The notes: generated from the sequence alone by a model not told the origin. A DNA stretch of 64,000 nucleotides from Escherichia coli (GCF_045037415.1 NZ_CP173438.1), one strand, 5' to 3'; counted from the first letter of the stretch, positions 58,189 through 59,319 are shown. Numbers and translations are program-made.

Positions 58189-59319
58189 ATGACCGGACGT
58201 AAAAACAAATGTGTCAGAAAAAATTGTAACAATCAGGTTTTCTCAGTAAAAATGGCAGTGGAGAAAAGACTGTGCAGAAAACATTATGAGAGGTTTTGTG
58301 AGCTCAAAAAAAGAAGAGAGCAAAATCCTGTTCACAGATTAAATGAAGCATTGCCAAGAAAGATAAAAGGACCAAAAAGTAAGAAAAAATTAGTAAAAGA
58401 AAGAGAAATCATTAACAGCAGAAAAAAACATAAACAGGAGCAGGGACCATCGCTGACTGAACTTAATAAAAAAGTTCGTGAGATACTGAAAACTCCTGCA
58501 TGGAGAACGCTGGAAACGAGAATTCGAAGAAACGGAATCACATTTAAGTCAAAAGCAGAGTTAGATGCGCTTTCTGAACTTTATGCAATTTATTCATGGG
58601 TTTCATATTGCAAACGGGGCGATAATTATTCTGTGTGGTTTTTGAATTGTCCGGATGTAAATATAAACCTTCATGTGTGCGAATGCCGGTCTTCTGAAAG
58701 CGATTGTTATCTGCCATCTCGTTTTATTATTCTTCCAGCTCCATTAAGGCAAAAAGTAAAAAGAAAATACTCTGCTAATTCGTCTGGGGTACCAGGACAT
58801 AATGATTCAAAAAGTCTTTATAAGACAGTTTTGTCTGTTTGTGGTGGGAAAAGAGAAACCGAAATGTTCTTTTATTCATTGCCAGTAAAGACTAATCATC
58901 ATCCTTACTGGATTAAAAGTGGTGTGGTTAAAAGATTCCCTCCTGTTTTTGGTTTGTTGTTTTATGAACAGGAAAGATTAACAGGAGGTGTTTTTCGTTA
59001 TGTGTTGATAAGATTTTATAATACTTTTAAAGAGAATTTGTTTTTTGTTGAGATTGTATCGTGCTGTTTTCTTGTTGAGCTTTTTCATGATATTGATTCA
59101 TTTTTTATAAATCAACGATTAAGTAAGCTGGAAAGTTTTATAGATAAGTGGAGGGAGGGTAAAGAAATCTGGATAAAAGTATATTTACAACTGATACATA
59201 CTATATTGGGAATAACTGAAACAGAAAAACTCGTCAATCTATATAATTCATTTTTTACTGATAAAGTGGTTCTCTGGGATGAATCAGTAAAAAAAGTTAA
59301 GTGGATTTATGAGAAATAG
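58189..59319 (+). CDS. hypothetical protein, AT-rich orphan ORF with N-terminal Cys cluster (possible zinc ribbon)
   Basis: 376-aa ORF with AGGAG/GAGAGG ahead of the ATG at 58189; N-terminus KCVRKNCNNQ...RLCRKHYERFC, Lys-rich linker, no family recognised; strongly AT-rich versus neighbours. Confidence 0.5.
   Translation: MTGRKNKCVRKNCNNQVFSVKMAVEKRLCRKHYERFCELKKRREQNPVHRLNEALPRKIKGPKSKKKLVKEREIINSRKKHKQEQGPSLTELNKKVREILKTPAWRTLETRIRRNGITFKSKAELDALSELYAIYSWVSYCKRGDNYSVWFLNCPDVNINLHVCECRSSESDCYLPSRFIILPAPLRQKVKRKYSANSSGVPGHNDSKSLYKTVLSVCGGKRETEMFFYSLPVKTNHHPYWIKSGVVKRFPPVFGLLFYEQERLTGGVFRYVLIRFYNTFKENLFFVEIVSCCFLVELFHDIDSFFINQRLSKLESFIDKWREGKEIWIKVYLQLIHTILGITETEKLVNLYNSFFTDKVVLWDESVKKVKWIYEK

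What the first reader, a model, noticed from the sequence alone, without database searches (positions are those of the whole stretch)
58189..59319. Orphan AT-rich 376-aa gene with an N-terminal Cys cluster in the cargo slot of the CP4-like island
This ORF is markedly more AT-rich than the flanking island backbone and sits divergently next to the YfjP-like GTPase. In CP4-57 that position holds the RnlAB defence module (recalled). It has a good RBS, an N-terminal C-x4-C...C-x3-H...C arrangement suggestive of a zinc ribbon or HNH-like finger, a Lys-rich linker, and a roughly 280-aa C-terminal region I cannot assign to any family. Position, composition and lack of recognisable homology make it a candidate single-gene phage-defence or abortive-infection determinant.
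Basis: partly seen in the sequence, partly recalled or inferred. Interest (0 to 1): 0.75.

Follow-up and report, generated by a model that had tools for sequence, protein, structure and literature searches.

The report
Hypervariable zinc-finger gene of CP4-like islands
This is a real, selected, completely uncharacterised gene: one allele of a very fast-diverging, strongly basic protein family found at one fixed position in a widespread class of E. coli, Klebsiella and Salmonella genomic islands, more likely an island-specific nucleic-acid-binding factor than a free-standing phage-defence cargo gene.

Summary
The ORF (58189-59319, +, 376 aa) is real. It is intact in 458 of 462 complete E. coli genomes that carry it and is under purifying selection (dN/dS about 0.3). 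It is AT-rich (33% GC against 53% for the divergent YfjP-like GTPase gene).

Its N-terminus carries an invariant C8-x4-C13-x15-C29-x2-H32 zinc finger. A disordered Lys-rich linker and a mostly helical domain follow.

It is not arbitrary cargo. It lies in a sharply bounded replaceable cassette (58081-59731) between conserved backbone. The alternative cassettes next to 96-97% identical GTPase genes encode very distant homologues (17-20% identity). The same family holds this position in Klebsiella and Salmonella islands.

Alleles without the zinc finger always have a convergent partner gene; zinc-finger alleles never do. All alleles have pI 9.6-10.

Best reading (confidence 0.35): a nucleic-acid-binding, element-specific regulatory or specificity factor heading the Gp2(Rep)/AlpA module. 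Single-gene phage defence remains a live rival (0.25). Function is untested.

The parts
58189..59319 (+). ORF 'X', 376 aa, RefSeq WP_000147748.1 'hypothetical protein'. It is the zinc-finger-bearing 376-aa allele of a hypervariable basic protein family.
58176..58180 (+). Shine-Dalgarno AGGAG, 8 nt upstream of the ATG
   Evidence: sequence read directly
58210..58299 (+). Codons 8-37: C8-x4-C13-x15-C29-x2-H32-x4-C37, a putative treble-clef/zinc-ribbon-type CCCH finger. It is the most constrained part of the protein (residues 1-55, omega 0.08).
58354..58473 (+). Codons 56-95: Lys/Arg-rich linker, predicted disordered and evolving almost neutrally (omega 0.83)
58474..59316 (+). Codons 96-376: mostly helical domain with no detectable relative outside the family. 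The conserved core is KTPAW(R)..RR / ELYxxYSW..CK (residues 96-150, omega 0.09), and there is a C-terminal LYNSFF motif.
58081..59731 (.). Replaceable cassette. Homology to islands carrying other alleles stops at 58080/58081 and resumes at about 59732.
59320..59731 (.). Allele-specific 3' non-coding part of the cassette. No conserved ORF and no RNA-structure signal, yet it diverges at about half the synonymous rate of X (d 0.18 against dS 0.33).
58005..58080 (.). Conserved backbone part of the divergent intergenic region, shared by all allele types. In other alleles the X-like ATG lies only 25-30 bp beyond it, so the shared promoter region probably lies here (inferred).
57120..58004 (-). YfjP-type GTPase gene, first gene of the leftward backbone operon (WYL regulator, DUF905, DUF932, antirestriction, RadC, DUF987, CbeA/CbtA ...)
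59732..60817 (.). Gene-free AT-rich (37% GC) backbone segment upstream of the Gp2-family gene. It is 85-97% conserved among islands with different cassettes. Candidate origin or regulatory region (inferred).
60818..61549 (+). Inovirus Gp2 / YagK-YfjJ family (HUH rolling-circle Rep-like) gene. It is the next gene downstream of X in E. coli and Salmonella; in Klebsiella AlpA comes first.

Best explanation
X is the 376-aa, zinc-finger-bearing allele of a hypervariable, strongly basic protein family.

Shown:
- The family is a fixed component of one lineage of CP4-like integrative elements.
- It is the first gene of the rightward module (X, then the Gp2-family Rep-like gene and AlpA). It is transcribed divergently from the conserved leftward operon (GTPase, WYL regulator, DUF932, antirestriction, RadC, CbtA).
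- The family exists as deeply diverged alleles. These are exchanged as cassettes by recombination in the conserved flanks.

Inferred:
- X binds nucleic acid through its CCCH zinc finger and basic linker.
- Its rapidly diverging helical domain acts as an element-specific regulatory or specificity factor for the element's replication, excision or gene expression. In this it would resemble the swappable immunity regions of lambdoid phages or the divergent Stl repressors of SaPIs.
- In alleles that lack the zinc finger, the convergent partner gene Y (weakly RHH-like C-terminus) may supply the DNA-binding function in trans.
For: Real, selected gene:
- Intact in 458 of 462 genomes.
- dN/dS 0.13-0.43, with no frameshift even at 80% amino-acid identity.

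Fixed position across genera:
- Divergent from the GTPase and upstream of AlpA/Gp2 in Klebsiella, Salmonella and E. coli.
- X is 20-30% identical between genera, while backbone proteins are 51-77% identical.

Allelic cassette:
- Breakpoints lie at 58080/58081 and about 59732, next to GTPase genes that are 96-97% identical.
- Alternative occupants are homologues.
- Summed allele counts (515 + 1069 + about 812 places) approach the 2504 GTPase-flank places.

Nucleic-acid-binding character:
- All 13 aligned alleles have pI 9.6-10.0. X has net charge +33, of which +27 lies in residues 1-120.
- The zinc finger has omega 0.08 and invariant ligands.
- One Salmonella allele carries two tandem copies of the finger.

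Domain complementarity:
- All 5 loci sampled with zinc-less alleles have a 4-bp-overlapping convergent partner Y.
- None of the 9 loci screened with zinc-bearing alleles (5 length classes: 376, 377, 383, 407, 465 aa) has Y or a remnant of it.
- Y has weak RHH_1 / RepB-RCR_reg similarity.

Other:
- The allele-specific non-coding DNA inside the cassette evolves more slowly than synonymous sites.
- No effector domain and no invariant catalytic set.
- Literature describes these elements as integrase + excisionase + HUH Rep + cargo + RadC/ArdB/CbtA module (PMC12458937; analogous Pseudomonas islands in PMC12595487).
Against: - No DNA binding, zinc binding or regulatory effect has been shown. There is no HTH or other known DNA-binding profile.
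- At 376 aa it is large for a Cro/Str-like regulator.
- No convincing repeated operator motif was found in the cassette flanks. The one shared 10-mer, TTTTCCGAAC, is not conserved in the upstream copy.
- The presumed target regions (58005-58080 and 59732-60817) are conserved across allele types, so allele-specific recognition has no obvious backbone target.
- The same allele can occur 2-4 times in one genome, which argues against strict same-type exclusion.
- The AF2 model of Y is all-helical and does not confirm an RHH.
- The loci used for the Y association are not phylogenetically independent.
- In CP4-57 the homologous interval does carry defence genes.
Confidence: 0.35

Rival explanations
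1. X is a single-gene anti-phage defence or abortive-infection determinant. Its hypervariable helical domain would sense a phage component, and allele turnover would reflect an arms race.
For: - The equivalent interval of CP4-57 holds RnlAB and AbpAB.
- The segment is a recombinationally exchanged cassette on a mobile element.
- Divergence is extreme relative to the backbone, with raised omega in residues 151-350.
- These islands carry defence cargo nearby, namely a restriction endonuclease and TIR genes downstream of Gp2.
- Elements of this kind are described as defence carriers (PMC12458937).
Against: - No PADLOC hit for X or for any alternative allele or partner.
- No effector-type domain, no transmembrane segment, and no conserved catalytic residues across alleles.
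- The slot is filled by one homologous family in three genera. By summed counts, about 96% of E. coli loci with this GTPase flank carry a member. Defence hotspots typically hold unrelated systems or are empty.
- In this island lineage the variable cargo lies downstream of Gp2/AlpA instead.
Confidence: 0.25
2. X is an accessory factor of the island's rolling-circle replication or mobilisation machinery. Examples would be an origin- or ssDNA-binding partner of the Gp2-family HUH protein, or a copy-control or incompatibility determinant.
For: - X heads the module that contains the Gp2/YagK-YfjJ Rep-like gene.
- X is followed by a conserved gene-free AT-rich segment that could be an origin.
- The family is basic throughout.
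- Partner Y of the zinc-less alleles has weak similarity to RepB-RCR_reg and NikA-like RHH proteins.
- A 62-kb circular record built of such island modules, including X, exists (CP057032.1).
Against: - Cassette type is not coupled to the Gp2 or gap sequence. A different cassette sits next to a right flank that is 90% identical, the same level as for same-type loci.
- CP4-57 has Gp2-like genes and a YfjP GTPase but no X-family member.
- No homology to any known replication protein.
Confidence: 0.15
3. X is an anti-defence or inter-element competition factor. This would fit its position next to an operon rich in antirestriction-type genes (ArdB/KlcA-like, RadC, DUF932).
For: - Adjacent to an antirestriction/RadC/DUF932 module.
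- Hypervariability fits a conflict protein.
- A basic protein could bind nucleic acid or act as a decoy.
Against: - X is on the opposite strand from the co-oriented antirestriction operon.
- Absent from phages, from viral contigs and from real plasmids.
- No similarity to any known anti-defence protein in the libraries searched.
Confidence: 0.12
4. X is a decaying or functionless ORF kept only by linkage.
For: - Strong AT-richness suggests H-NS silencing (inference).
- No transcript or protein evidence is available here.
Against: - Intact in 458 of 462 genomes and across 80% amino-acid divergence without indels.
- dN/dS is about 0.3 overall and 0.08-0.09 in two segments.
- Full-length conservation down to 20-30% identity in other genera.
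- The chance of such an ORF at this composition is about 1e-14.
Confidence: 0.03

Closest known systems
Swappable immunity regions of lambdoid phages and the divergent Stl master repressors of SaPIs/PICIs
   Same: - A sharply bounded, recombinationally exchanged segment between conserved flanks.
- It sits at a divergent promoter region at the head of the replication/excision module.
- It encodes deeply diverged alleles of one protein, with a small nucleic-acid-binding N-terminal module and a variable C-terminal domain.
The comparison itself rests on general knowledge of those systems.
   Different: - No HTH and no sequence or fold similarity to cI, Cro, Stl or any repressor.
- No operator repeats identified.
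- X is co-oriented with the Rep/AlpA genes rather than divergent from them.
- Regulation has not been shown.
Defence modules in the homologous interval of CP4-57 (RnlAB, AbpAB/YfjLK)
   Same: Located between the Gp2-family gene and the YfjP-type GTPase of a CP4-type island. The content varies between related islands.
   Different: - No homology to RnlA/B or AbpA/B, and no PADLOC hit.
- In the X lineage the occupants are all one family. X is divergent from the GTPase, whereas rnlAB is co-oriented with yfjP.
CCCH treble-clef/zinc-ribbon fingers, including the C..C..(G)LCxxHYxR motifs found in front of some actinobacterial and phage HNH proteins (recalled from memory, not tested)
   Same: The ligand pattern C-x4-C ... 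C-x2-H followed by HY.R ('RLCRKHYERF'). The AF2 model shows a short beta hairpin followed by a helix. A tandem duplication occurs in one allele.
   Different: - No HNH catalytic motif and no HNH profile hit.
- Only one conserved His.
- The finger is absent from a whole branch of the family.
RHH copy-control and relaxosome accessory proteins (CopG/RepB-RCR_reg, NikA). Relevant only to partner gene Y of the zinc-less alleles.
   Same: Weak profile similarity of the Y C-terminus (RHH_1 E 0.14; RepB-RCR_reg and NikA-like weak). Y lies next to an HUH Rep-like gene.
   Different: - All scores are below significance.
- The AF2 model of Y shows no beta strand there.
- Y is absent from the window.

Membership tests
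Known anti-phage defence systems (PADLOC-DB v2, including RnlAB, Abi families, PD-T4/PD-lambda and PDC candidates) | Significant match to a defence-protein profile | tested here: not met
   0 families at E <= 1 for X. 0 families for the 407-, 316- and 328-aa alleles and the partner genes.
Known anti-phage defence systems | Confers phage resistance when expressed | not testable with these tools
   Needs plaque assays.
HNH endonuclease | HNH/beta-beta-alpha-Me profile match with a catalytic His plus Asn/His | tested here: not met
   No Pfam, NCBIfam or PHROG HNH hit. Only H32 is conserved in the N-terminal region. No nuclease among fold matches.
Zinc ribbon / treble-clef zinc finger | Four conserved Cys/His ligands in a knuckle plus helix-start arrangement | tested here: met
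   C8, C13, C29 and H32 are invariant in A2. The model shows strand-strand-helix with pLDDT 86-89. Omega is 0.08.
Zinc ribbon / treble-clef zinc finger | Binds zinc | not testable with these tools
   Needs metal analysis of purified protein and ligand mutants.
Phage/satellite immunity repressor (cI/Stl-like) | Recognised DNA-binding domain (HTH) and cognate operators | tested here: not met
   No HTH profile. No conserved operator-like repeats in the cassette flanks.
Phage/satellite immunity repressor (cI/Stl-like) | Hypervariable alleles in a bounded cassette at a divergent promoter of the replication/excision module | tested here: met
Backbone component of the CP4-like (integrase / AlpA / Gp2-HUH / GTPase...CbtA) island lineage | Same position and orientation relative to the GTPase and the Gp2/AlpA genes in independent islands and genera | tested here: met
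   E. coli, Klebsiella (two subtypes) and Salmonella loci. K-12 CP4-57 lacks it, so it defines a sub-lineage and is not present in all CP4-type islands.
Phage or plasmid gene | Found in phage genomes, viral contigs or plasmids | tested here: not met
   No phage hit and no IMG/VR hit. The only plasmid record is a 62-kb circle made of island modules.

The most novel reading that the evidence does not exclude
The X family is the hypervariable sensor or specificity subunit of a previously unrecognised island 'immunity cassette'. In this reading a zinc-finger (or, in trans, RHH-partner) nucleic-acid-binding module is coupled to a fast-evolving helical domain that recognises a helper phage, plasmid or rival element. 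It would either switch the island's Rep/AlpA and GTPase/antirestriction operons, or trigger defence together with the conserved LeoBC-like GTPase next door. That would make it a new protein class present in roughly a third of E. coli genomes.
Probability: 0.3. Interest if true: 0.8.

Novelty: new variant of a known kind. Interest (0 to 1): 0.6.

Why it matters
Islands of this type (integrase, AlpA, Gp2-like HUH protein, GTPase, antirestriction, RadC, CbtA) are among the commonest mobile elements in Enterobacteriaceae. They carry virulence and defence cargo, yet how they are regulated and mobilised is unknown.

Members of this family were found in 462, 976 and 742 of 5426 complete E. coli genomes for three allele groups. 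These include ST131, CFT073 and APEC lineages. Every member is annotated 'hypothetical'.

A fixed-position gene that diverges to 17-20% identity next to 96-97% identical neighbours marks a molecular conflict or a specificity determinant. Identifying its target would either reveal how these islands sense helpers or competitors, or add a new defence family. The two architectures (finger fused, or finger-less plus partner) give a ready-made experimental handle.

Tried and rejected
Searches that found nothing:
- Profile and sequence searches of X against PADLOC, NCBIfam, PHROGs, Pfam and PDB sequences. The only matches were noise (acyl-CoA synthetase E 0.15, PX E 6, IFIT5 E 0.9).
- Rfam on 57900-61000: no match.
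- Promoter and terminator scans: below shuffle expectation.
- RNA folding of the 3' non-coding part of the cassette: z-scores 0.3 and 0.9, so no structure signal.
- The 53-aa ORF at 59459-59620: not conserved, because L012 has frameshifting indels there.
- Repeat search for operators: only weak two-copy matches.
- hhalign of the family against K-12 YfjH and against partner Y: no relation.
- hmmsearch against six-frame ORFs of CP4-57: no X-like gene.
- Literature searches for accession WP_000147748 and for GTPase/island terms: no paper on this gene. The PIME preprint describes a different element family.

Technical failures and choices:
- The search for related loci with alignment A3 failed because the alignment is too divergent. 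With A2 on viral contigs it found no relative.
- The 5.8-billion-protein searches had already limited the family to Enterobacteriaceae.

Readings rejected:
- 'AT-rich means recent foreign cargo', because AT-richness is family-wide in three genera.

Full report
OBSERVATION. AGGAG lies 8 nt upstream of the ATG. At the local composition (35% GC) the probability of 376 stop-free codons is about 1e-14. The ORF is 33.4% GC (GC3 26.8%). The divergent YfjP-type GTPase gene (57120..58004, -) is 52.8% and the window 50.4%. Residues 56-120 carry 22 Lys/Arg and are partly predicted disordered. RefSeq calls the product WP_000147748.1 'hypothetical protein', in an ST131 island next to cadC.

IS IT A REAL GENE? 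Yes. It occurs in 462 of 5426 complete E. coli genomes at 95.5-100% nucleotide identity, full length in 458. These include CFT073, ST131 and APEC strains, and it is always annotated as an intact CDS in the rows inspected. Against four other copies, down to 80% amino-acid identity, there are no indels or internal stops. dN/dS is 0.13-0.43, against 0.10-0.21 for the neighbouring GTPase. Constraint is uneven:
- Zinc-finger region (residues 1-55): omega 0.08.
- Linker (56-95): 0.83.
- Residues 96-150: 0.09.
- Residues 151-350: 0.2-0.5.
dS is also two to three times higher in the C-terminal half, which suggests intragenic mosaicism.

HOMOLOGUES. Two searches of billions of proteins find only a narrow set of full-length relatives in E. 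coli, Klebsiella spp., Salmonella, Citrobacter and Atlantibacter. All are unnamed and without Pfam domains. In a 10-sequence alignment down to 20% identity the invariant residues include:
- all five Cys/His of the N-terminal cluster;
- K101, W105 and R113;
- Y135, S136, C141 and K142;
- P183, E260, R263 and E288;
- Y352, N353 and F356.
One Salmonella member (465 aa) has two tandem copies of the finger. No phage genome, IMG/VR contig or genuine plasmid encodes it.

CONTEXT: A FIXED POSITION. In Klebsiella (two subtypes) and Salmonella the homologue lies in the same place as in the window. It is divergent from the YfjP-type GTPase (93-97 bp gap) and upstream of the AlpA and Gp2-family (REP_ORF2-G2P / YagK-YfjJ) genes. 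Between these genera X is 20-30% identical, while the backbone proteins are 51-77% identical. X therefore evolves much faster than its neighbours but does not move.

CONTEXT: A REPLACEABLE CASSETTE. About 1870 E. coli genomes have a GTPase 5' end that is 96-97% identical to the window's, but in about 1400 of them homology stops at window 58080/58081. Pairwise BLAST shows homology resuming at about 59732. The exchanged segment is thus 58081-59731. It comprises X, 108 bp upstream and 412 bp downstream. The AT-rich, gene-free stretch 59732-60817 and the Gp2 gene are shared backbone.

An ST131 strain has a different cassette at the same chromosomal site. It encodes a 316-aa protein (+) and a convergent 262-aa protein (-). 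Other genomes have a 407-aa gene, or 312- to 328-aa genes with 263- to 281-aa partners. These are not unrelated cargo:
- The 407-aa protein is a full-length homologue of X (hhalign probability 99.5%, E 4e-23). It has its own C-x4-C-x15-C-x2-H finger and the C-terminal (I/L)YNS(C/F)F motif.
- The 316-aa protein aligns to X residues 97-268 (probability 87%, E 3.7e-6) but lacks the finger and linker.

Allele counts in complete genomes are:
- 376-aa type: 462 genomes, 515 places.
- 407-aa type: 976 genomes, 1069 places.
- Finger-less types: 742 genomes, about 812 places.
Together these approach the 2504 places that have the GTPase flank. This is a comparison of sums, not a per-locus count, and exceptions exist: locus L019 has only a 64-aa ORF plus a Y-like gene. 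K-12 CP4-57 has no family member. Its equivalent interval holds abpB/abpA, yfjM and rnlA/rnlB.

FEATURES THAT BEAR ON MECHANISM.
(i) Every aligned allele, with or without the finger, has pI 9.6-10.0. X has net charge +33, of which +27 lies in residues 1-120.
(ii) Across all allele types only W105, Y135, L152, P183 and E288 are invariant. That is not a catalytic signature.
(iii) All five loci sampled with finger-less alleles have a convergent partner Y overlapping by 4 bp. None of the nine loci with finger-bearing alleles has Y or a remnant of it. Y's C-terminus resembles RHH proteins only weakly (RHH_1 E 0.14; RepB-RCR_reg and NikA-like weak), and its AF2 model does not confirm this.
(iv) In the other alleles the start codon lies 25-30 bp beyond the left breakpoint. 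All alleles are therefore probably driven from the conserved 58005-58080 region shared with the GTPase operon (inference).
(v) The allele-specific 3' non-coding 412 bp diverges at d = 0.18 where synonymous sites of X show 0.33. It holds no conserved ORF and no RNA-structure signal.
(vi) AT-richness is family-wide: 33-36% for finger-bearing genes and 43% for finger-less ones, against 53-59% for the adjacent GTPase gene in E. coli, Klebsiella and Salmonella. It is a maintained property and does not mark recent import.

INTERPRETATION. Shown: X is a selected protein-coding gene. It is one allele of a hypervariable, basic, Enterobacteriaceae-restricted family that holds a fixed position in a lineage of CP4-like islands and is exchanged as a bounded cassette.

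Inferred, at confidence 0.35: it binds nucleic acid through the CCCH finger and basic linker. It serves as an element-specific regulatory or specificity factor at the head of the Gp2(Rep)/AlpA module. This would be functionally comparable to swappable phage immunity regions or SaPI Stl proteins, with partner Y possibly supplying DNA binding for finger-less alleles. The published picture of these elements (integrase, excisionase, HUH Rep, cargo, and a RadC/ArdB/CbtA module at the far end; PMC12458937) fits this placement. So do the analogous Pseudomonas islands with IntY, AlpA, Gp2-like and RadC core genes (PMC12595487). Neither paper addresses this gene.

Against the inference:
- No binding or regulatory data exist.
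- There is no HTH.
- No operators were found.
- The putative backbone targets are conserved across alleles.
- Identical alleles co-reside 2-4 times in some genomes.

RIVALS.
- Single-gene defence (0.25) keeps the support of location, mobility and hypervariability. It lacks a PADLOC hit and an effector domain, and it sits uneasily with one family filling the slot in three genera. In this lineage the truly variable cargo (restriction endonuclease, TIR, acyltransferase and others) lies downstream of Gp2/AlpA.
- Replication or mobilisation accessory (0.15).
- Anti-defence or inter-element factor (0.12).
- Functionless ORF (0.03), which the evidence above makes very unlikely.

VERDICT. The family is uncharacterised and common, and its pattern (allelic cassettes, finger fused or partner supplied) is unusual enough to merit experiments. 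Interest 0.6.

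Noticed in passing
window 59732-60817: A 1.1-kb gene-free, AT-rich (37% GC) stretch upstream of the Gp2-family gene. It is 85-97% conserved in most 30-nt blocks among islands that carry different cassettes. There is no Rfam match. Salmonella islands have a similar ~1.6-kb gap (L006 9984-11583). It may be an origin, oriT or regulatory region.
   Followed up: partly
window 60346/60642 (compare L014 6344-6874 and L018 9792-10322): Relative to other islands, the window lacks a minus-strand 176-aa gene in this gap. 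That gene's only match is a weak one to PHROG 'transcriptional regulator, D5-like' (E 0.003). Its presence is independent of the X allele type.
   Followed up: partly
window 57994-58009 / 58046-58061: A 16-nt inverted repeat (88% complementary, 36 nt apart) spans the GTPase start codon and the conserved divergent intergenic region. It may be an operator or a 5'-UTR hairpin.
   Followed up: no
window 57120-58004 (-): The YfjP-type GTPase gives a partial PADLOC match to LeoBC of the Eleos (dynamin-like) defence system (E 3e-8; residues 183-285 against profile positions 459-550 of 601). The adjacent regulator (56237-56917) matches WYL models.
   Followed up: no
window 61877-62756 (+): The 'restriction endonuclease' gene downstream of Gp2 is intact in NZ_CP015085 (292 aa). 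In the window it is split by a frameshift near codon 68, giving ORFs 61877-62119 and 62070-62756.
   Followed up: partly
L021 (CP057032.1, 62,375-bp circular record): This record is deposited as a non-mobilizable E. coli plasmid but consists of island modules. It has three Gp2/AlpA sets, K88-type fimbrial genes, an integrase, and the full GTPase...DUF4942 operon with X at 99.7% identity. It could be an excised composite island or an assembly artefact.
   Followed up: no
L017 8358-9146, L020 8395-9186, L023 5442-6251, L025 5454-6299, L027 5436-6245, L019 7514-8533: A second uncharacterised, Trp-rich family ('Y', 262-339 aa, invariant AAFW and WAW motifs, weakly RHH-like C-terminus). It is encoded convergently with every finger-less X allele sampled, overlapping it by 4 bp.
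   Followed up: partly
window 37287-37496 (-): A weak tblastn match (E 0.005, 27% identity over 74 aa) to the C-terminal RHH-like part of Y, elsewhere in the window. Not examined.
   Followed up: no
H1/H2 (NZ_CP082120.1, NZ_CM151390.1): In two genomes an IS1 element is inserted within the stretch that corresponds to window 58000-59700. The exact site relative to X was not determined.
   Followed up: no
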